The notes under the pieces were generated by a model, which saw only the letters and a list, made by a program, of their open reading frames with translations, was not told the origin of the DNA and did not search any database. This document shows positions 41,603-52,548 of a stretch of 64,000 nt of DNA, piece by piece. Each line of letters opens with the position of its first letter. Position 1 is the stretch's first letter. A program made the translations under genes and the position numbers. Source of the stretch: a virus (taxonomy: Duplodnaviria; Heunggongvirae; Uroviricota; Caudoviricetes); IMG/VR virus record IMGVR_UViG_3300021962_009794. One strand, given 5' to 3'.

Positions 41603-42286
41603 ATGAACTACAGATCAGAATTTGAAAAGTACGCTAGAAGCGAACACGGAATCTCCTCACTGAGATTGGATTACTTCGATAAAAGAATCCAATCGTCAAT
41701 GACGCCTTATATCTTAGAGGAAAGAGAAATGAGAGTTACTCAGATGGATATCTTCTCACGTTTAATGAGAGATCGCATTCTTTGGGTTGCTGGAGGAGTT
41801 GATGATGACATGTCGACTGTGGTTCAGGCTCAGCTGATGTTTTTAGATTCTGTTGACGACAGAGACATCACTATGCACATCGATTCACCAGGTGGATCTG
41901 TTAAGTCCGGTCTATCTATGATTGATGTTATGGAATACATCGCATGTGACATCAGAACAGTAAATACCGGAATGGCAGCATCAATGGGATCTGTTTTATT
42001 GGGAGCAGGTACTAAAGGTAAAAGAAGCTCTTTGAGATTCAGTAAGGTGATGCTTCACCAATCAAGCGGAGGATTTAGAGGAAATATCCAGGATGCAAAG
42101 ATTGATATGCAAGAGTGGGAAGAGGTTAACAAGATTCTTTTCGATCTTCTTGGAAGTTACTGCGGTAAGAAACCAGAGCAGGTCATGAAAGATGCAACTA
42201 GAGATTTCTGGTTAAGTGCAGAAGAGGCAGTAAAATACGGAATCATTGATGAAGTAGTTCTCAAGAAGGAGAAAAAAAGAAAATAA
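41603..42286 (+). CDS. clpP: ATP-dependent Clp protease proteolytic subunit ClpP
   Basis: Canonical ClpP blocks: RDRILWVAGGVDD, AQLMFLDS, IDSPGGSV, GMAASMGS (catalytic Ser), MLHQSSGG (His). Confidence 0.85.
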   Translation: MNYRSEFEKYARSEHGISSLRLDYFDKRIQSSMTPYILEEREMRVTQMDIFSRLMRDRILWVAGGVDDDMSTVVQAQLMFLDSVDDRDITMHIDSPGGSVKSGLSMIDVMEYIACDIRTVNTGMAASMGSVLLGAGTKGKRSSLRFSKVMLHQSSGGFRGNIQDAKIDMQEWEEVNKILFDLLGSYCGKKPEQVMKDATRDFWLSAEEAVKYGIIDEVVLKKEKKRK

Positions 42287-42711
42287 TGCAATCCATAGTT
42301 AACCGTAAGGCCAGATTTGAATACACGTTTATTGACACCTACACTGCGGGGATATGCCTAATTGGCTCCGAAGTTAAGGCTATCAAAGACGGCAGGGCTT
42401 CTATGGTTGACACATATTGCATTTTTAATAAAGAAGAACTTTGGGTTAAGGGACTAGGGATAACTCCTGGTCCTGGCTCATTTCAGCACGAAGCACTCAG
42501 GGACAAGAAACTTCTACTGAGAAAGAAAGAGCTAAAAAAGCTGAGATCGTCTTTGGATAAAGGTCTTACGATAATACCTGTTAAGATATTCGTAAACGAA
42601 AAGAATAGGTTAAAGATGGAAATAGCTTTAGCTAGAGGTAAGAAGCTTTATGACAAAAGGGAATCTATTAAGGAAAGGGATATAGAGAGGGACATGAGAA
42701 GGAACGATTAA
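42286..42711 (+). CDS. smpB: SsrA-binding protein SmpB
   Basis: NRKARFEYTFIDTYTAGICLIGSEVKA...KLLLRKKEL...KIALARGKKLYDKRESIKERD aligns with bacterial SmpB along its whole length. Confidence 0.85.
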   Translation: MQSIVNRKARFEYTFIDTYTAGICLIGSEVKAIKDGRASMVDTYCIFNKEELWVKGLGITPGPGSFQHEALRDKKLLLRKKELKKLRSSLDKGLTIIPVKIFVNEKNRLKMEIALARGKKLYDKRESIKERDIERDMRRND

Positions 42712-44567: not shown

Positions 44568-44642
44568 GGTCCCTTAGCTCAGTTGGTCAGTAGCGGCGGC
44601 CTCATAAGCCGAAGGTCACAGGTTCAAGTCCTGTAGGGACCA
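44568..44642 (+). tRNA. tRNA-Met (anticodon CAU; could be elongator Met or a lysidine-modified Ile2)
   Basis: Hand fold: acceptor GGTCCCT/AGGGACC; anticodon stem GCGGC/GCCGA with loop CTCATAA; T-arm ACAGG-TTCAAGT-CCTGT; discriminator A; no encoded CCA. Confidence 0.65.
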
Positions 44643-44725
44643 CAAAGTGTTGTCACCTTGAGAAAGTGATGTTATATAGTGGCTTTGACTGAGTGCCAAC
44701 AACACTAAGGGGTTCTCTCCCTTAA

Positions 44726-44802
44726 TACTCGGGTATCTCCTCATGCTTATACCATGTAGAAAGAGTAATTGGTTACATAAGGGTTCAAGTCCCTTCCCGA
44801 GT
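44726..44802 (+). tRNA. tRNA-like element (canonical acceptor and T arm, unresolved core)
   Basis: ACTCGGG/CCCGAGT acceptor, AAGGG-TTCAAGT-CCCTT T-arm, discriminator A. The 45-nt core does not fold into canonical D and anticodon arms by hand, and is preceded by a structured 85-nt spacer with nested hairpins. Confidence 0.35.
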
Positions 44803-44826
44803 ACAAAAACAAATTAAAAAAATAAT

Positions 44827-47672: not shown

Positions 47673-47954
47673 ATGTCTAGACTATTCAACTACTCAGGAG
47701 ATATTCAGGTCATCGGAGATGTTATCTCCGTTACGGATAACTCAGGGGACAATCATGTTATATCACAAATCTCTTCAAGAGATAGGATGAACGATATTGA
47801 GAATGAAATCAGCCAAATGCACCTTCTTCTCAATAAACTATGTCCTGGCACCTACGGAGCTATCGGATTAGGTCCAACTGTAGCGGAGAGGTTTGAAGAG
47901 TTTCTGAAAACAGGTCCTGAGTGGGTAAGCGTGAAAAAGGAAGAAAATAAATAG
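47673..47954 (+). CDS. hypothetical small protein
   Basis: ORF. Confidence 0.45.
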   Translation: MSRLFNYSGDIQVIGDVISVTDNSGDNHVISQISSRDRMNDIENEISQMHLLLNKLCPGTYGAIGLGPTVAERFEEFLKTGPEWVSVKKEENK

Positions 47955-48008
47955 ATTTACATTTTTTTAATACGAAATCAATGATTATATTTGTAATGTA
48001 AATCAAAT

Positions 48009-48088
48009 GGTCCTAGAGCTTAAACCGGCGTGGAAGTCGAGTCTGCCTCTAAAACAGATAGCATCGGGTTCAAATCCTGCTAGGATCA
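48009..48088 (+). tRNA. tRNA-like element with CUA triplet in an anticodon-loop-like context (possible amber-reading suppressor; non-canonical fold)
   Basis: Acceptor GGTCCTA/TAGGATC (one G-T wobble); T-loop TTCAAAT; internal stem GTCTG/CAGAT closing a C-T-CTA-A-A loop (positions 48047-48053, CTA at 48049-48051); the D-arm is overlong. Confidence 0.35.
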
Positions 48089-48111
48089 CGAAAAAGTTCT
48101 TTGAAAAATAT

Positions 48112-48182
48112 AGTCAGGTGGCGGAATTGGTAGACGCTAGTTATTTATACGAAAGTTACAGGTTCGAATCCTGTCCTGACTA
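48112..48182 (+). tRNA. tRNA-like element (Leu-type D arm, aberrant anticodon region)
   Basis: Acceptor AGTCAGG/CCTGACT; D-arm GCGG-AATTGGTAGA-CGC identical to a bacterial tRNA-Leu; T-arm ACAGG-TTCGAAT-CCTGT; region between D and T arms is only about 20 nt and has no 5-bp anticodon stem (only a small AC-GAAA-GT hairpin). Confidence 0.4.
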
Positions 48183-48422
48183 CACGGTTCGGTTCATCTC
48201 CGAATAGTATGCCCAATACGATGAGAAGTAGGATGATTACCTACATGGGACTTCTGATAGGGAAACGCTCTATCTGGTTTGACTAACCACGGAGAAGATC
48301 AAAGAGGCGTAAGAACAACGTACGTTTCATAAGTCTATTTCTAACTTTACAATAACCACTTACCAGTGGGAGTAAAGGACAGCCACGACACCTGCAAGTT
48401 GAATAAATTAGGGTGTTAATAC

Positions 48423-48506
48423 AGTCAGGTAGCGCACGGGTTAGCGCGTTGGTGAGCAATAAAAAGCAAAAGACAAAGGTAACAGGTTCGAGTCCTGTCC
48501 TGGCTA
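48423..48506 (+). tRNA. tRNA-like element (paralog of 48112..48182 with aberrant, extended anticodon region)
   Basis: Acceptor AGTCAGG/CCTGGCT; D-arm GCGC-ACGGGTTA-GCGC; T-arm ACAGG-TTCGAGT-CCTGT; a 33-nt A-rich stretch sits where the anticodon and variable arms should be. Confidence 0.4.
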
Positions 48507-48519
48507 CAAAAATAAAATT

Positions 48520-48984
48520 ATGAGGCAGTTAAAAATAGAATTGGAAGACATTTCACACATCACAGGATCGATATCTGACTATCAGTACTTACCTAACATT
48601 TTCACCCAACTAACAAGTGGAGAAGAAAGAGAAGGGTTAGTAAAATTTTGGAATGAGAAGGTGGTTAAAAGAGAAAAAGATACTTGGCTGAACCGACAAG
48701 AAATTAACTTTTGGCATGAAATCAATCTTCATGTGGTTAAACAAACTTGGGGTAATACCTCAGGAGGATGGCAAGGTATAGGAGGATCTGCAATGACTTC
48801 TACATATACCGTTATCATAGAGAATGATTGGTATGATTTTGCCTGCATTTATTATAATGGAAAGCTGGCTTACGTTTGTGAAATGGACGACAAATACAAA
48901 GAACATGTGACAAATGGATATAGAACTTTGCCAGGTTGCGGTAGCTGCAGAGAAAAATTGACAGTACTTTACAAGTCAAGATAA
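48520..48984 (+). CDS. hypothetical protein (154 aa; weak C-type-lectin-like WQGIGG...NGKLAYVCE pattern)
   Basis: ORF. Confidence 0.5.
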   Translation: MRQLKIELEDISHITGSISDYQYLPNIFTQLTSGEEREGLVKFWNEKVVKREKDTWLNRQEINFWHEINLHVVKQTWGNTSGGWQGIGGSAMTSTYTVIIENDWYDFACIYYNGKLAYVCEMDDKYKEHVTNGYRTLPGCGSCREKLTVLYKSR

Positions 48985-49034: not shown

Positions 49035-49397
49035 ATTAAATTTCAACAACCGAAACTTGTCATCGTAACAAGACAAGACATCAACCCAGGTTACCAAGTG
49101 GTTCAGTCCACGCATTCAATCGCCGACTTTGCTTACGAGCATCCAGAAATATTCGGCAAATGGAAAGAAGAGTCAAACTCTATAATTTGTCTTTCCGCAA
49201 AATCACAAGAACACTTATTAAAACTTCATGAGAAATATTCTCATCTAACAGAGGCATCATTGTTTTTTGAGCCTGACGTAGACGAGTATACATCATTGTG
49301 CCTTTATGGATCGCCAGAGATTCGTAAAGGCCTTTCTCATTTGCCCCTATGTAATCCTAAAAATCAAATAAAAAAAGAAAGCTATGAAAACAAGTGA
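49035..49397 (+). CDS. PTH2-family peptidyl-tRNA hydrolase with uncertain start
   Basis: KLVIVTRQDINPGYQVVQSTHS...IICLSAKSQEHLLKL...SLCLYGSP aligns with the Pth2 fold. The first canonical start is a GTG at 49098, inside the conserved N-terminal strand. The in-frame ATG at 49026 is followed two codons later by an in-frame TAG (49032). Confidence 0.5.
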   Translation: MKFQQPKLVIVTRQDINPGYQVVQSTHSIADFAYEHPEIFGKWKEESNSIICLSAKSQEHLLKLHEKYSHLTEASLFFEPDVDEYTSLCLYGSPEIRKGLSHLPLCNPKNQIKKESYENK

Positions 49398-50456: not shown

Positions 50457-50993
50457 ATGAATAGGGCAGATAAAATAACGGATCTAATGTACGGATGCAA
50501 AGCTAATGATCCAAAAGCCCAAAGAGAACTATACGATCTACTTAGCCGAAAAATGGCAGCATACATTTCAAGATATGTAGATTCAAAAGAAGATGCTGAA
50601 GAAATAGTTAATACGGGATTCTGTAGGGTTTTTCGGAAAATACATCTTTATAGCGGAATAGGGGATTTCGAAGGATGGATTTCTGTTATAATAAAAAGAG
50701 CAGCCATAGATCATCTAAAGCGTAAACTGAAAGCAAGAGAATCGATGAATGTAGTGGAGTTAAAAGAATATGAAAACTTTAAGCATCCAGAAATCGGAGA
50801 TAGCGTGGATTACATCTATAAGAGTATGGAAGGACTACCCAAGAAAACAAAAAGAGTAATGGATCTTTTTATTAGAGGATTTAAGCACAGTGAGATTGGA
50901 GATATAATAGGGATTAGCGAGGGAACATCTAAGTGGCACGTTCACGAGGCCAAAAAGATTATGCTAGGTAGGATAACAAAAAAGGCGGGATAA
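50457..50993 (+). CDS. sigma-70-family (ECF-like) RNA polymerase sigma factor
   Basis: Region 2-like GFCRVFRKIHLY...GWISVIIKRAAIDHLKRK; region 4 HTH GFKHSEIGDIIGISEGTSKWHVHEAKKIM. Confidence 0.65.
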   Translation: MNRADKITDLMYGCKANDPKAQRELYDLLSRKMAAYISRYVDSKEDAEEIVNTGFCRVFRKIHLYSGIGDFEGWISVIIKRAAIDHLKRKLKARESMNVVELKEYENFKHPEIGDSVDYIYKSMEGLPKKTKRVMDLFIRGFKHSEIGDIIGISEGTSKWHVHEAKKIMLGRITKKAG

Positions 50994-51111: not shown

Positions 51112-52548
51112 TTACTTTTGATAATCTCTGATTACCACTTTGTTTACCTTCAAGTTAGGCGTTTGAATTCCGCCACTCTTATAAACAACAACATCATATT
51201 TGTCTGAAGTGTTAATCTCGTATTTGAAAACAGTCATTAGCTTACCGTCTTCGCTAACTGGATTACAACATCCTTTAAGACATGTTTTGTTTCTAGGGTC
51301 ACTATGGTTAGCACCAAAGAATGTCATAACACCTACGAAAGATTCGCTCTGCATGTCATATGGTTTACCTTCAGCGTGATTAACATAAACTTCATAGAAT
51401 CCGGTAGGATCTGTGTCGAATGTTGTGTAGATCTCTAAAAGAGTTTTTTGATGATTATACTTAGCAGGCTTATTTAAAGTGGCTACGTGAGTAGCAGCTT
51501 CTTTTAGAATTTTATTAGATGACTCAGAACCTATAATTTGTTTTGGTCCTATGTTAGCATCAGAAGCTTTTAAATTCTCCTTAACCTTTACGTCATCATA
51601 ATCATAGTCCATGTTGTAAACGATGGCTAATACCTCCTCCGGAGTGTAAACAACAGATTTACCATTCTCGTCGAAGAATTGATATTTCCATGGGTTGTCT
51701 TTTAACTGCTGTAGAGTAATCTTTTTACCGTTTGGAGAGTTTAACCATTGCTGAAACACTCTATCAATATTAGCGTGGTGAGCCCAGAAAATAGGATCGA
51801 AAGCTGCACTCGGTACTTCTGACATCATACCAAAATGAGAATTACGTTGATAGATCTTGTTGTAGTACCAAACAGATCCTGGATTGTTACCAGATCCGAT
51901 ATAGTTGTGCATTTGTCCGTGAATGTTCTGATCAAAGTAAGAATTGAATGTTTGGTAGTCAGTGATCTGCATCATCTTAGGATAAGTGCTCTGAATAACT
52001 CTTAATGTTCCGCCGCTGATTGGGTGACCGTTATTTAAAGAATCAAGTCTTGCTTCCTCGTATAAAGAACTGTTAACATCTCTCCATTTCTTAGGCATGA
52101 TCTTATCTCTCTTGTCGTAGTTAGTGTAACCCCAATAAGGTAATGCGAAATCAGATTTACCTGAAAGTTTTCTTACGATCTTTTCAAAATGCCAGATGTA
52201 TAATCTGTGCCAGATAAGGAAATTGATTTCTTCAGCACCACTGTGAGAGTGCGTGCACTCATCCCAAGCCATTTTTAATTCTGTCCAGTCGCTATATGAT
52301 TCACATAACTTATTAGAGTCGATATGTGAAGGAACCCAGTGAATAGCAGCTTGATAGTACCAGCTGGTTGGATCGTCACATCCTTTTAGTTTCATAACAG
52401 TCATTGCGCTATCAAGAGCTTCGATGTCAGCCAAAGCCTCAGACGAGTTGGCATTTTTTCTCACATATCTTAAATCGTTTTCGCTAGTAGTACACGAAGA
52501 TATGGCCGTGACTAATAGGGCAAATAGAATTACAATTTTTGTTTTCAT
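51112..52548 (-). CDS. secreted tyrosinase (type-3 copper polyphenol oxidase) lipoprotein
   Basis: Signal peptide plus lipobox MKTKIVILFALLVTAISSC; CuA site H...FLIWHRLYIWHFE; CuB site HGQMHNYIG...DPIFWAHHANIDR. Confidence 0.7.
   Translation of the reverse strand: MKTKIVILFALLVTAISSCTTSENDLRYVRKNANSSEALADIEALDSAMTVMKLKGCDDPTSWYYQAAIHWVPSHIDSNKLCESYSDWTELKMAWDECTHSHSGAEEINFLIWHRLYIWHFEKIVRKLSGKSDFALPYWGYTNYDKRDKIMPKKWRDVNSSLYEEARLDSLNNGHPISGGTLRVIQSTYPKMMQITDYQTFNSYFDQNIHGQMHNYIGSGNNPGSVWYYNKIYQRNSHFGMMSEVPSAAFDPIFWAHHANIDRVFQQWLNSPNGKKITLQQLKDNPWKYQFFDENGKSVVYTPEEVLAIVYNMDYDYDDVKVKENLKASDANIGPKQIIGSESSNKILKEAATHVATLNKPAKYNHQKTLLEIYTTFDTDPTGFYEVYVNHAEGKPYDMQSESFVGVMTFFGANHSDPRNKTCLKGCCNPVSEDGKLMTVFKYEINTSDKYDVVVYKSGGIQTPNLKVNKVVIRDYQK

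What the first reader, a model, noticed from the sequence alone, without database searches (positions are those of the whole stretch)
47955..48519. 565-nt non-coding locus with three tRNA-like elements that have canonical acceptor, D and T arms but no proper anticodon stem; one displays a CUA triplet
Elements at 48009-48088, 48112-48182 and 48423-48506 have 7-bp acceptor stems, GGTTC(A/G)A(A/G)TCC T-loops and discriminator A. Elements 2 and 3 have ordinary D-arms; element 1's is overlong. Elements 2 and 3 share the same acceptor and T-arm and differ by only two substitutions there. In every one, the segment where the anticodon arm should be is AT-rich and does not form a 5-bp stem with a 7-nt loop. 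Element 1 instead has a 5-bp stem (with a G-T pair) closing C-T-CTA-A-A. That is exactly the loop context (C32, U33, anticodon, A37, A38) of an amber (UAG)-reading anticodon, but with a C-A closing mismatch and an overlong D region. The 240 nt between elements 2 and 3 is also non-coding and looks structured. Possible explanations are unusual suppressor or recoding tRNAs, tRNA-derived decoys for a host anticodon nuclease (fitting the repair-enzyme theme), or pseudo-tRNAs.
Basis: seen in the sequence. Interest (0 to 1): 0.65.

Follow-up and report, generated by a model that had tools for sequence, protein, structure and literature searches.

The report
Anticodon-less tRNA look-alikes in phages
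Two of the three elements belong to a large, apparently undescribed family of phage RNAs that keep the upper half of a leucine tRNA almost unchanged, replace the anticodon arm with an interchangeable piece of variable sequence, and are probably cut out of phage transcripts by the host's tRNA-processing enzymes.

Summary
Elements 2 (48112-48182) and 3 (48423-48506) score 43.2 and 42.4 bits on the Rfam tRNA model, but only with the anticodon arm skipped. Default ARAGORN calls neither. Element 1 (48009-48088) scores 26.5 bits, below threshold, and shows a CUCUAAA loop.

Elements 2 and 3 are not isolated oddities. Their 5' and 3' halves recur in more than 200 uncultured, mostly freshwater phage contigs (~285 distinct copies). 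They match no host tRNA and no deposited phage genome. The acceptor stem, T arm and usually a tRNA-Leu-type D arm with the tertiary core stay constant, with compensatory changes. The middle is 14-146 nt, hypervariable, and has an anticodon arm only at chance rate.

Copies carry the same flanks as genuine tRNAs in these phages (U-1, C74). They abut structured ncRNAs, including the 240-nt RNA here (covariation in 23 of 42 pairs), and often sit 10-30 nt before start codons. In one phage lineage the same slot is empty in 52 contigs and filled in 19, with at least nine different middles.

Best reading: portable tRNA-like processing cassettes with an exchangeable module. Expression, cleavage and the module's function are untested. 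Element 1 is a singleton, degenerate amber-type tRNA-like gene.

The parts
47986..47993 (+). TATATTTG, an exact match to the Bacteroidota -7 promoter consensus TAnnTTTG (consensus from my own knowledge). It lies 15 nt upstream of element 1 and is the likely start of the RNA array transcript.
   Evidence: Read from the sequence. The same motif is enriched 12-45 nt upstream of family members: 16 of 154 against 2.5% expected. It arrives together with the element in the filled tape-measure slot. Promoter activity is inferred.
48009..48088 (+). Element 1: a singleton, degenerate tRNA-like gene. It has a 7-bp acceptor stem (one G-U), a T arm with one mismatch, an overlong D region, and a 4-bp stem plus C-A mismatch closing the loop C-U-CUA-A-A (amber-type anticodon). 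It is not a member of the AGTCAGG family.
   Evidence: Rfam tRNA 26.5 bits, below the gathering score of 29. ARAGORN calls it only at the 80% threshold, as tRNA(cta), with the alternative 5' strand 48016-48022. Its 3' 23-mer has no exact match in IMG/VR. Its flanks, U-1 and C74, are like those of real tRNAs.
48112..48182 (+). Element 2: a family member with a minimal middle. Acceptor AGTCAGG/CCTGACT, A73, tRNA-Leu-type D arm (GCG-GAATTGGTAGA-CGC), a 20-nt unpaired AU-rich linker, and T arm ACAGG-TTCGAAT-CCTGT.
   Evidence: Rfam tRNA 43.2 bits with the anticodon arm skipped. A near-identical copy is in L100.
48184..48422 (+). A structured ncRNA of ~239 nt belonging to a conserved phage RNA family (180-240 nt). 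It is butted directly against element 2 (after C74) and against element 3 (a single base before A1).
   Evidence: 95% identical in L100, where a rho-independent terminator replaces element 3. There are 18 IMG/VR loci and 11 distinct sequences. The consensus fold has compensatory changes in 23 of 42 pairs. There is no Rfam match.
48423..48506 (+). Element 3: a family member with the same acceptor and T arm (U3-G70 wobble, T loop GAG), a class-I-type D arm (GCGC-ACGGGTTA-GCGC), and a 33-nt purine/A-rich unpaired middle.
   Evidence: Rfam tRNA 42.4 bits with a 22-nt insertion in the anticodon arm. The CCTGGCT variant is present in 10 other members. A related middle (TTGGTGAGCA[A/G]TAAA...) occurs in L096.
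48520..48984 (+). A 154-aa ORF whose ATG lies 13 nt after element 3, behind an A-rich leader without a Shine-Dalgarno sequence (CAAAAATAAAATT). This is the typical 'element then ORF' arrangement.
   Evidence: 28% of family members have an ORF start 8-40 nt downstream, against 16% of ordinary tRNAs and 12% of random positions. A homologue exists in a 635-kb uncultured phage. There is no Pfam or PHROG match.

Best explanation
Elements 2 and 3 are non-decoding tRNA mimics of a phage-specific family derived from a class II tRNA-Leu. I read them as portable tRNA-like processing cassettes.

What is kept:
- 7-bp acceptor stem with A73.
- T arm.
- Usually a Leu-type D arm.
- Core contacts U8-A14, A15-U48, G18G19/T loop and T54-A58.
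This is what RNase P, the tRNA 3'-end machinery and the CCA-adding enzyme read.

What is replaced: the anticodon and variable arms, by an exchangeable module of 14-146 nt.

Proposed course of events in the window (all inferred):
1. A Bacteroidota-type promoter at 47986-47993 drives one transcript: element 1 - element 2 - 240-nt ncRNA - element 3 - ORF 48520.
2. Host RNase P cuts before position 1 of each element.
3. The 3' machinery cuts at 73/74.
4. This frees each element as a stable tRNA-shaped small RNA. It also gives the ncRNA both its ends and the mRNA a short A-rich leader.

Shown: the anatomy, the family, conservation and covariation, tRNA-like flanks, precise abutment to neighbouring RNAs and ORFs, and cassette behaviour (presence/absence and module swapping).

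Inferred: transcription, cleavage, stability, and whether the pay-off lies in the neighbours' ends, in the released module, or in both.

Element 1 is a separate, degenerate amber-anticodon tRNA-like gene processed in the same transcript.
For: Family and specificity:
- The 3' 25-mer and the 5' 26-mer each occur in at least 120 IMG/VR contigs.
- The 3' 25-mer occurs in only 16 MAG contigs, all from scattered taxa, out of 185,579 species genomes.
- No deposited phage record matches more than about 60% of element 2; the hits are generic tRNA parts.

No anticodon arm:
- 3 of 134 members have one at the canonical position, against 2.35 in shuffles.
- 276 of 307 distinct copies are not callable by ARAGORN as full-length tRNAs.
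- The calls ARAGORN does make are spread over at least 10 isotypes.

An RNA-level constraint on the upper half:
- Compensatory variants occur in the acceptor stem (AGTCAAG/CTTGACT, TGTCAGG/CCTGACA, AGCAAGG/CCTTGCT), the T stem (GAAGG/CCTTC, GATGG/CCATC, ACTGG/CCAGT, ACAAG/CTTGT) and the D stem (GCG/CGC and GTG/CAC).
- Positions 8-9 are UG in 201 of 208, position 48 is U in 187 of 208, and G18G19 are kept.

Processing signals are shared with real tRNAs of the same phages:
- U-1 in 81% of family members against 71% of real tRNAs.
- C74 followed by A-rich sequence in 97% of family members (148/152); C74 also in most real tRNAs of these phages.

Genomic context:
- 85-92% are co-oriented with neighbouring ORFs.
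- They abut the 240-nt ncRNA family on one or both sides without a spacer, and a second ~120-nt RNA.
- ORF starts are enriched 8-40 nt downstream: 28% against 16% and 12%.
- In L100 a terminator takes the place of element 3, so the element and a terminator are alternative ways to end the same RNA.

Known precedent: plant mitochondrial t-elements form mRNA ends in this way (PMC1920247, abstract listed).
Against: - There are no expression or end-mapping data.
- RNase P and the 3' enzymes do not need a fixed acceptor sequence, yet 215 of 285 copies keep AGTCAGG/CCTGACT/A73. Genuine tRNA-Leu genes in the same loci vary freely. This suggests an additional sequence-specific partner.
- The cassette is dispensable: 52 of 71 related phages have an empty site upstream of the tape-measure gene.
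- Middles are either unrelated or more conserved than the flanking DNA. For example, flanks 88% with middle 100% identical, and flanks 94% with element 100%. Some show compensatory changes (L012/L044). This points to a function for the module itself rather than a mere spacer.
- Only 28% precede an ORF closely, and 32% lie within 1 kb of a normal tRNA.
Confidence: 0.42

Rival explanations
1. Natural 'tRNA scaffold'. The elements are trans-acting small RNAs whose effector is the variable middle (a base-pairing seed, protein-binding site, or RNA decoy such as an antitoxin or guide mimic). The constant tRNA half serves only to excise, stabilise and perhaps CCA-tail the RNA. The repertoire turns over under phage-host conflict.
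For: - One slot has at least 9 unrelated middles and a presence/absence polymorphism: 19 filled, 52 empty.
- A second slot shows replacement at 97% flank identity.
- The same middles recur in other genomic contexts (L069~L078, L041~L114).
- Homologous middles are conserved at least as well as the flanks and show compensatory changes.
- There are several different copies per genome, up to 5 in 5 kb.
- Some copies have their own promoter-like box.
Against: - Middles are only weakly structured on average: mean z -0.98, with hairpin counts like shuffles.
- No complementarity to anything else in about 1.2 Mb of loci.
- Element 2 has only a 20-nt AU-rich linker.
- The module swapping could be neutral gene conversion between repeats.
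- No partner protein was identified.
Confidence: 0.27
2. Upper-half tRNA decoy or sponge. The constant acceptor/T/D half titrates a host factor that recognises tRNA bodies. Candidates are a tRNA-targeting defence nuclease that reads the elbow, acceptor stem or type-II tRNA shape, or a sensor. Lacking an anticodon loop, the decoy cannot be inactivated by cleavage there and cannot disturb decoding.
For: - The acceptor sequence is held far more tightly than in genuine tRNAs of the same phages.
- Copy number is high.
- The elements are accessory in distribution.
- The window invests heavily in tRNA/RNA repair and ribosome rescue: RNA ligases, Thg1-like, HAD_SAK_2, cREC_REC, SmpB, ClpP and a weak PTH2-like hit. 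This argues that the host attacks tRNAs.
Against: - The known phage-relevant tRNases I am aware of cut, and largely recognise, anticodon or variable loops, which are absent here.
- The model does not explain the precise abutment to ncRNAs and ORFs.
- It does not explain why middles are conserved when homologous.
- No cognate host system is identified.
Confidence: 0.13
3. Chargeable but non-decoding tRNA-Leu. Host LeuRS leucylates the elements. The charged RNA then serves outside normal decoding, either as an aminoacyl donor for a transferase, or with the phage SmpB as a minimal tmRNA-like rescue factor followed by peptidyl-tRNA hydrolysis.
For: [quoted passage not shown] - SmpB (42286-42711) sits next to ClpP, with no tmRNA detectable in the window.
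- SmpB homologues lie 1.3-2.4 kb downstream of family members in L026, L039 and L120.
- There is a weak PTH2-like ORF at 49098-49397.
- Phage use of aminoacyl-tRNA outside translation has precedent in Mom (PMC13219725).
Against: - About 27% of members, including element 3, have non-Leu D regions.
- There is no G3-U70, and U3-A70 or U3-G70 would not be read by AlaRS (established AlaRS identity rule, my own knowledge).
- No tag ORF or pseudoknots are present, and the low-threshold ARAGORN tmRNA call is spurious ('tag not identified').
- SmpB lies near only 3 of about 200 loci, all relatives of this phage.
- No transferase was identified.
- This model does not explain the positional pattern.
Confidence: 0.1
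4. Decaying tRNA pseudogenes or a selfish recombinogenic repeat with no RNA function. The conserved ends are kept only because they mediate recombination or mobility.
For: - Elements sit at synteny breakpoints: 102 of 148 pairs with one homologous flank lose homology across the element.
- There is an empty/filled polymorphism.
- The window and L100 differ by rearrangements bounded by elements.
Against: - Compensatory substitutions in all three helices and retention of tertiary-contact nucleotides are RNA-level signatures, not DNA-level ones.
- Flanks match tRNA processing signals.
- No transposase or integrase association was seen.
- No target-site duplication is visible beyond a 1-nt ambiguity at the filled/empty junction (read from the sequences).
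Confidence: 0.08

Closest known systems
Plant mitochondrial t-elements, and the tRNA punctuation model generally (Forner et al. 2007, PMC1920247)
   Same: Both are tRNA-like structures with acceptor and T arm but no decoding function. They are embedded in polycistronic transcripts and are recognised by RNase P and RNase Z, which creates the 5' and 3' ends of neighbouring RNAs.
   Different: Those are organellar, with few copies and no conserved family sequence. These are phage-borne and number in the hundreds of copies. They have a near-invariant acceptor/T arm, a retained D arm and tertiary core, an exchangeable middle, and a presence/absence polymorphism. Cleavage has not been shown here.
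mascRNA / menRNA tRNA-like 3' modules of MALAT1 and MEN-beta (PMC11693755)
   Same: A tRNA mimic placed next to a structured ncRNA so that RNase P defines the ncRNA's 3' end and releases a small tRNA-like RNA. Element 3, placed after the 240-nt RNA, has the same arrangement.
   Different: Those are eukaryotic, single-copy and have a fixed sequence. Here elements flank the ncRNA on both sides, and in L100 a terminator substitutes for the downstream one.
tmRNA tRNA-like domain with SmpB (PMC3985003)
   Same: It has the upper half of a tRNA and no anticodon, with a large insertion where the anticodon arm would be. It is processed by RNase P. This phage encodes SmpB and ClpP.
   Different: There is no G3-U70 alanine identity, a canonical D stem is present, there are no pseudoknots or tag reading frame, and the size is 54-200 nt. 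Neither ARAGORN nor Rfam tmRNA models match.
YrlA bacterial Y RNAs (PMC4201824; bioRxiv 10.1101/312249)
   Same: A bacterial and phage ncRNA with a tRNA-like module (T arm, D arm, acceptor-like stem) that lacks an anticodon, found near RNA-repair genes.
   Different: From my own knowledge of the family, in YrlA the 5' and 3' ends form the Ro60-binding stem and the acceptor-like stem is closed. Here the ends are those of a tRNA. No Rfam Y RNA family matched, and no Ro60/TROVE family appeared among the top 25 Pfam families of the window.
Minimalist tRNA-Leu substrates of LeuRS (reviewed in PMC9976931)
   Same: The same retained elements: A73, A14, the A15-U48 pair, G18G19 and A20a. The anticodon arm is dispensable for leucylation.
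   Different: Those are laboratory constructs. Charging of the phage RNAs is untested, and about a quarter of members, including element 3, lack the Leu-type D arm.
Engineered tRNA scaffolds (PMC3753655) and polycistronic tRNA-guide arrays
   Same: The same design principle: a tRNA body is used to excise and stabilise an arbitrary RNA inserted at the anticodon arm, or to cut arrays into units with host RNase P and Z.
   Different: Those are man-made. The engineered scaffold keeps the anticodon stem, which the natural family does not.

Membership tests
Canonical tRNA | 7-bp acceptor stem, discriminator base, and T arm with a GTTCRANYC-type loop | tested here: met
   All three elements meet this. 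Element 1 has one T-stem mismatch and one G-U pair in the acceptor stem.
Canonical tRNA | 5-bp anticodon stem with a 7-nt loop (U33, purine 37) at positions 27-43 | tested here: not met
   Elements 2 and 3: the arm is skipped by the covariance model and unpaired in the folds. Across the family the rate is at chance, 3 of 134 against 2.35. Element 1 has 4 bp plus a C-A mismatch and the loop CUCUAAA.
Canonical tRNA | Detected by standard tRNA finders | tested here: inconclusive
   The Rfam tRNA model scores elements 2 and 3 above the gathering score (43.2 and 42.4 against 29) but element 1 below it (26.5). Default ARAGORN finds none. At relaxed thresholds it gives mispaired, arbitrary isotypes. 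tRNAscan-SE was not available.
Amber suppressor tRNA (element 1 only) | CUA anticodon in a canonical loop, within an otherwise functional cloverleaf, in a genome that needs TAG read-through | tested here: inconclusive
   The loop C-U-CUA-A-A is present. However, the D region is 7 nt too long or the acceptor stem is mispaired, the score is below threshold, and its 3' 23-mer has no exact match in IMG/VR. TAG ends 9 of 82 ORFs, and late genes read through normally under the standard code.
tmRNA (one-piece or permuted) | G3-U70 alanine identity, a tRNA-like domain without a D stem, pseudoknots, and a tag reading frame with a resume codon | tested here: not met
   Position 3:70 is U-A in element 2 and U-G in element 3. 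A D stem is present. There is no Rfam or ARAGORN tmRNA hit at normal thresholds. The 80%-threshold call joins unrelated halves and reports 'tag not identified'.
YrlA / bacterial Y RNA | Ro60-binding stem formed by the 5' and 3' ends, a closed acceptor-like stem, and an Rfam model match | tested here: not met
   No Y RNA family matched in the Rfam scans, even at E up to 10. The ends here are tRNA-like acceptor ends.
Group I intron-containing tRNA-Leu | Intact anticodon stem and loop interrupted by a self-splicing intron of about 200 nt or more, with a group I core | tested here: not met
   Middles are 14-146 nt with no flanking anticodon stem. There is no Intron_gpI match. ARAGORN's intron mode merely joins the element 2 5' half to the element 3 3' half.
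t-element / tRNA-like processing signal (functional class) | A tRNA-like acceptor/T structure positioned exactly at the ends of neighbouring RNAs within one transcription unit | tested here: met
   The 240-nt RNA starts after C74 of element 2 and ends one base before A1 of element 3. The same holds in 13 of 19 (upstream) and 8 of 19 (downstream) homologous loci, counted by me from the sequences listed. The ORF starts 13 nt after element 3. Elements are co-oriented with neighbours in 85-92% of cases.
t-element / tRNA-like processing signal (functional class) | Actual cleavage by RNase P at -1/+1 and by the 3' machinery at 73/74 | not testable with these tools
   Only indirect evidence: U-1 and C74 flanks identical to those of genuine tRNAs in the same phages.
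Leucine-accepting tRNA (E. coli-type identity set) | A73, A14, A15-U48, G18G19 and A20a in the D loop (elements named in PMC9976931) | tested here: inconclusive
   Present in element 2 and in 208 of 285 family members. Absent from element 3, which has the D loop ACGGGTTA. Charging itself is not testable here.

The most novel reading that the evidence does not exclude
Freshwater phages that probably infect Bacteroidota carry a repertoire of small RNA genes built on a natural tRNA scaffold. The invariant tRNA upper half recruits the host tRNA-processing enzymes, and perhaps the CCA-adding and charging enzymes. The plug-in middle is the effector. Modules are swapped between slots and between phages, and gained or lost like accessory genes. 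This would make the system an RNA-based counterpart of protein accessory ('moron') or counter-defence genes.
Probability: 0.25. Interest if true: 0.85.

Novelty: new variant of a known kind. Interest (0 to 1): 0.72.

Why it matters
If the RNAs are made and cut as predicted, phages would be shown to use the tRNA-punctuation trick known from organelles and mammalian lncRNAs, and reinvented in synthetic biology as tRNA scaffolds and tRNA-guide arrays.

They would do so with one standardised, horizontally shared cassette. This would explain many 'odd', 'intron-containing' or 'undetermined' tRNA calls in phage and metagenome annotation, which inflate tRNA counts and suggest false codon-usage or recoding stories.

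The exchangeable middles and the empty/filled polymorphism mark these loci as fast-turnover accessory elements. In phages, such elements have repeatedly turned out to be host-takeover or counter-defence functions.

The near-invariant acceptor stem predicts a still unknown sequence-specific partner.

The finding also yields at least two new structured phage ncRNA families whose ends appear to be set by these cassettes.

Tried and rejected
1. Hidden ordinary anticodon arms. None was found by the Rfam model, default ARAGORN, a positional test against shuffles, or a search for anticodon-like hairpins anywhere in the middle.
2. Host tRNA or attP fragment. The 3' 25-mer is absent from all isolate genomes among 185,579 species. 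It occurs only in 16 MAG contigs.
3. Known phage feature. No deposited phage record matches more than about 60% of element 2. No paper in the library contains the sequences. Literature searches for phage tRNA-like, anticodon-less or decoy RNAs found no description.
4. Group I intron or split tRNA (element 2 5' half plus element 3 3' half). Only ARAGORN's intron mode suggests it. In L100 the downstream half is replaced by a terminator.
5. tmRNA, including the permuted form. Only a spurious 80%-threshold call and no Rfam tmRNA hit. The apparent short frame in the 240-nt RNA lies in a covarying hairpin (frames read by me from the sequences).
6. Middles as antisense to nearby genes. No matches outside other elements in about 1.2 Mb.
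7. Relatives of element 1. Its 3' 23-mer has no exact match in IMG/VR.
8. A conserved neighbouring protein. tblastn of all window ORFs against about 1.9 Mb of family loci found no widely shared neighbour. SmpB appears in 3 loci, all relatives of this phage.
9. Neutral drift as the cause of different middles. Rejected for the tape-measure slot: flanks are 86-93% identical while middles are unalignable and of different lengths, and for L158 against L147/L170. Neutral gene conversion between repeats is not excluded.
10. I did not build a covariance model or run formal pair-count statistics on the scaffold. The compensatory variants were counted directly instead.
Full report
**1. What is in the window**

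The stretch 47955-48519 carries no ORF of note. It lies between a 93-aa ORF that ends in TAG at 47954 and a 154-aa ORF that starts at 48520.

The Rfam tRNA covariance model finds three matches on the + strand:
- 48112-48182: 43.2 bits.
- 48423-48506: 42.4 bits.
- 48009-48088: 26.5 bits, below the gathering score of 29.

In the first two the anticodon arm is not aligned at all. It is replaced by 14 and 22 unaligned bases. Default ARAGORN reports only tRNA-Met at 44568-44643.

Relaxed ARAGORN forces mispaired 'Lys(ttt)' and 'Ala(agc)' calls on elements 2 and 3. With introns allowed, it joins the 5' half of element 2 to the 3' half of element 3. At the 80% threshold it calls element 1 'tRNA(cta)', using the alternative 5' strand GAGCTTA. 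Single-sequence folds give acceptor, D and T stems and leave the middle unpaired.

**2. Elements 2 and 3 belong to a large phage family**

The 25-nt 3' half (ACAGGTTCGARTCCTGTCCTGRCTA) occurs in at least 120 IMG/VR contigs, often several times per locus. The 5' half (AGTCAGGTGGCGGAAT[N]GGTAGACGC), searched on its own, also hit at least 120 contigs, many of them new.

Among one genome for each of 185,579 bacterial and archaeal species, the 3' half occurs only in 16 MAG contigs. These come from scattered taxa, 7 of them Bacteroidota, and mostly from lakes. In 50,697 deposited phage records, no match covers more than about 60% of element 2, and the hits are generic tRNA parts. No paper in the library contains the sequences. 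The family is therefore not a host tRNA, and it has no Rfam family of its own.

A generic scan of all fetched loci gave about 285 distinct members.

**3. Anatomy of the family**

The constant part:
- Acceptor stem: AGTCAGG/CCTGACT with A73 in 215 of 285 copies.
- T arm: ACAGG-TTCGAAT-CCTGT.
- Positions 8-9: UG in 201 of 208.
- D arm: Leu-type, 3 bp with an 11-nt loop (GAAT[T]GGTAGA), in 208 of 285.
- Position 48: U in 187 of 208.

These are the nucleotides of the tRNA tertiary core. They include the elements that PMC9976931 names for E. coli tRNA-Leu: A73 and A14, the A15-U48 pair, G18G19 and A20a. [quoted passage not shown]

All three helices show compensatory variants:
- Acceptor: AGTCAAG/CTTGACT, TGTCAGG/CCTGACA, AGCAAGG/CCTTGCT.
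- T stem: GAAGG/CCTTC, GATGG/CCATC, ACTGG/CCAGT, ACAAG/CTTGT.
- D stem: GCG/CGC and GTG/CAC.

The constraint therefore acts on an RNA.

Between the D and T stems lie 14 to 146 nt (median 54). These bases are A-rich, only mildly more structured than shuffles (mean z -0.98), and almost all unique: 134 sequences gave only 9 small clusters.

A canonical anticodon arm occurs at the chance rate at the canonical position (3 of 134 against 2.35 expected). Anticodon-like hairpins anywhere in the middle are also at chance (36 against 35.5 +/- 5.9). ARAGORN cannot of 307 distinct copies as full-length tRNAs. The calls it does make are spread over at least 10 isotypes.

Genuine tRNA-Leu genes in the same loci have normal anticodon arms and freely varying acceptor and T stems.

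**4. Context**

Family members have U at -1 (81%) and C at 74 (97%), followed by A-rich sequence. Genuine tRNAs of these phages show the same flanks: 71% U-1, mostly C74, followed by A-rich sequence. Members are co-oriented with neighbouring ORFs in 85-92% of cases.

An ATG-initiated ORF starts 8-40 nt downstream in 28% of members. This compares with 16% for ordinary tRNAs and 12% for random positions (examples). The leaders are A-rich and lack a Shine-Dalgarno sequence. The same is true of the window's own genes: 6 of 82 have an SD-like motif, and leaders are 48% A.

The Bacteroidota -7 consensus TAnnTTTG (consensus from my own knowledge) lies 12-45 nt upstream of 16 of 154 members, against 2.5% expected. 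It also lies at 47986-47993, just before element 1. Together with the MAG assignments, this points to Bacteroidota hosts. That is an inference.

**5. The 240-nt spacer**

It is 95% identical in the related contig L100. There it follows an almost identical element 2 but ends in a rho-independent terminator instead of element 3.

A conserved 3' block retrieved 18 loci with 11 distinct sequences of 180-240 nt. The consensus fold has 42 pairs, 23 of them with compensatory changes. No Rfam family matches.

By my count from the sequences, in 13 of 19 loci the RNA begins immediately after C74 of a family element. In 8 of 19 it ends one base before A1 of another. Otherwise a promoter-like box or a terminator takes that place.

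A second RNA of about 120 nt (CTGACACGCACGGCA...GACAGCTCGGAAAGACGAGCAAC) is likewise sandwiched between elements in several loci.

**6. Cassette behaviour**

Six related phages have flanks 86-93% identical, running from the tail chaperone gene to the tape-measure gene. They carry an element in the same slot with identical ends, but with unalignable middles of different length.

I then searched with the tape-measure 5'UTR alone and found 71 related contigs. Of these, 52 have an empty site (...CAGATAG|ACACATTCC...). The other 19 carry TATATTTGCAT[T/C] plus one element, or in two cases two elements. At least nine different middles occupy this slot. One of them is an almost canonical tRNA-Ile(UAU)-like module inside the family frame.

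A second case is L158 against L147/L170, with 97% identical flanks and unrelated middles. Conversely, where middles are homologous they are at least as conserved as the flanks. Examples are flanks 88% with middle 100%, and flanks 94% with element 100%. Some show compensatory changes, for instance L012 against L044: GTTGAA/TTCAAC and GAGCAA/TTGCTC around the same loop.

The same middles recur in other contexts. In addition, 102 of 148 pairs that share one flank lose homology across the element. The window and L100 also differ by rearrangements bounded by elements.

**7. Interpretation**

The conserved half is what RNase P, RNase Z and the exonucleases, the CCA-adding enzyme and EF-Tu recognise. 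The discarded half is what the ribosome needs. Combined with the tRNA-type flanks and the exact abutment to ncRNAs and ORFs, the best-supported mechanism is a portable tRNA-like processing cassette.

The host enzymes would excise each element. That would cut the phage transcript into a defined ncRNA, a short-leader mRNA, and a stable tRNA-shaped RNA carrying the variable module. The closest known analogues are plant mitochondrial t-elements (PMC1920247), mascRNA (PMC11693755) and engineered tRNA scaffolds (PMC3753655).

I put this at about 0.42, for three reasons:
- Cleavage is not shown.
- The near-fixed acceptor sequence is not needed for processing.
- The dispensability of the cassette, its module turnover and the conservation of middles all suggest that the released RNA has a function of its own.

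That last reading is the 'natural scaffold with effector module' rival (0.27). The other rivals are an upper-half decoy or sponge (0.13), a leucylated non-decoding tRNA used by a transferase or with SmpB (0.10), and a functionless recombinogenic repeat (0.08).

The RNA-repair and rescue context is real. It comprises two or three RNA ligases, a Thg1-like protein, HAD_SAK_2, cREC_REC, a PNK-like AAA_33 domain, ClpP at 41603-42286, SmpB at 42286-42711, and a weak PTH2-like ORF at 49098-49397. It is not specifically tied to the elements.

**8. Element 1**

Element 1 has a different acceptor (GGUCCUA/UAGGAUC) and T arm. It has tRNA-type flanks and the loop C-U-CUA-A-A on a 4-bp stem with a C-A mismatch. 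It has either a 7-nt surplus before the D stem or, with the alternative 5' strand, a mispaired acceptor stem. Its 3' 23-mer has no exact match in IMG/VR.

TAG is an ordinary stop in the window, ending 9 of 82 ORFs. Late genes, including a Gp23-like capsid gene, read normally under the standard code.

I regard element 1 as a degenerate amber-type tRNA-like gene. It is probably processed but of doubtful decoding capacity. A weak suppressor is not excluded.

**9. Novelty and score**

tRNA-like processing signals and tRNA upper-half mimics are a known kind of element. The following appear to be undescribed:
- A phage-wide, standardised, multi-copy family with an exchangeable middle and an empty/filled polymorphism.
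- The two ncRNA families it brackets.

I rate the finding as a new variant of a known kind, with interest 0.72.

Noticed in passing
window 44727-44803 (+): A fourth tRNA-shaped element, 77 nt long, lies 84 nt after tRNA-Met. It has acceptor ACTCGGG/CCCGAGT, A73 and T arm AAGGG-TTCAAGT-CCCTT. There is no D arm in the usual place. It has a hairpin CATG-CTTATAC-CATG whose loop reads like a UAU (Ile) anticodon loop, and a D-like hairpin GTAA-TTGG-TTAC where the variable arm would be. Neither ARAGORN nor the Rfam tRNA model calls it. Look-alikes with loops CTTATAC, CTGATAC and CTCATAA occur in other phage loci.
   Followed up: partly
window 48184-48422; L099, L100, L219-L234: The 240-nt spacer is a member of a conserved phage ncRNA family (180-240 nt) with strong covariation and invariant blocks (GAUGAGAA, CUAUUYCUAAC, GGACAGCCACRACACCUGYAAGUUG.AUAAAUUAGGGUGUU). 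It has no Rfam match and its function is unknown.
   Followed up: partly
L002, L022, L087, L011, L017, L031, L037, L038 (e.g. L002, minus strand, between its two family elements at 158-278 and 403-491 in + coordinates): A second recurrent RNA of about 120 nt sits between family elements. It starts CTGACACGCACGGCA and ends in the hairpin GACAGCTCGGAAAGACGAGCAAC, directly before the next element. It has no Rfam match.
   Followed up: no
window 41603-42286 and 42286-42711 (+): The phage encodes ClpP and SmpB side by side, but no tmRNA is detectable in the 64-kb window. SmpB homologues lie 1.3-2.4 kb downstream of family elements in L026, L039 and L120. One other family locus (L013) does carry a phage tmRNA.
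   Followed up: partly
window, whole (positions of most genes not mapped): The window holds a dense RNA-repair and tRNA-repair gene set: two PF09414 RNA ligases plus an Rnl1-type ligase, a Thg1-like 3'-5' polymerase, HAD_SAK_2, cREC_REC, a PNK-like AAA_33 domain and a YAcAr/SLOG domain. It also holds a tyrosinase-domain protein (51112-52548, minus strand) and a sigma factor (50457-50993).
   Followed up: no
several loci (sequences starting TGTAGGATGGTG..., TGACAGGTGGTG..., TGTAAGGTGTTG...): Another class of long (150-176 nt) tRNA-shaped elements has its own acceptor (TGTAGGA.../...CCTACAG), a Leu-like D arm and a conserved internal block (...GGGTTGACCACCAGC...). This suggests further 'tRNA frame plus insert' families in these phages.
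   Followed up: no
L235-L299 (tape-measure slot), e.g. L263, L273: At the empty/filled junction, filled haplotypes also recode the last four codons of the upstream gene synonymously (GCG AGA AGA AGG TAG against GCA AGG CGC AGA TAG). Two contigs carry tandem double elements separated by a 54-nt spacer, the start of which also follows the L069 element.
   Followed up: partly
window, all genes: Only 6 of 82 ORFs have a Shine-Dalgarno-like motif, and leaders are 48% A. TAA is the stop in 62 of 82 ORFs. Together with the TAnnTTTG boxes, this suggests a Bacteroidota host for a phage related to 200-300-kb IMG/VR contigs (L089, L120).
   Followed up: partly
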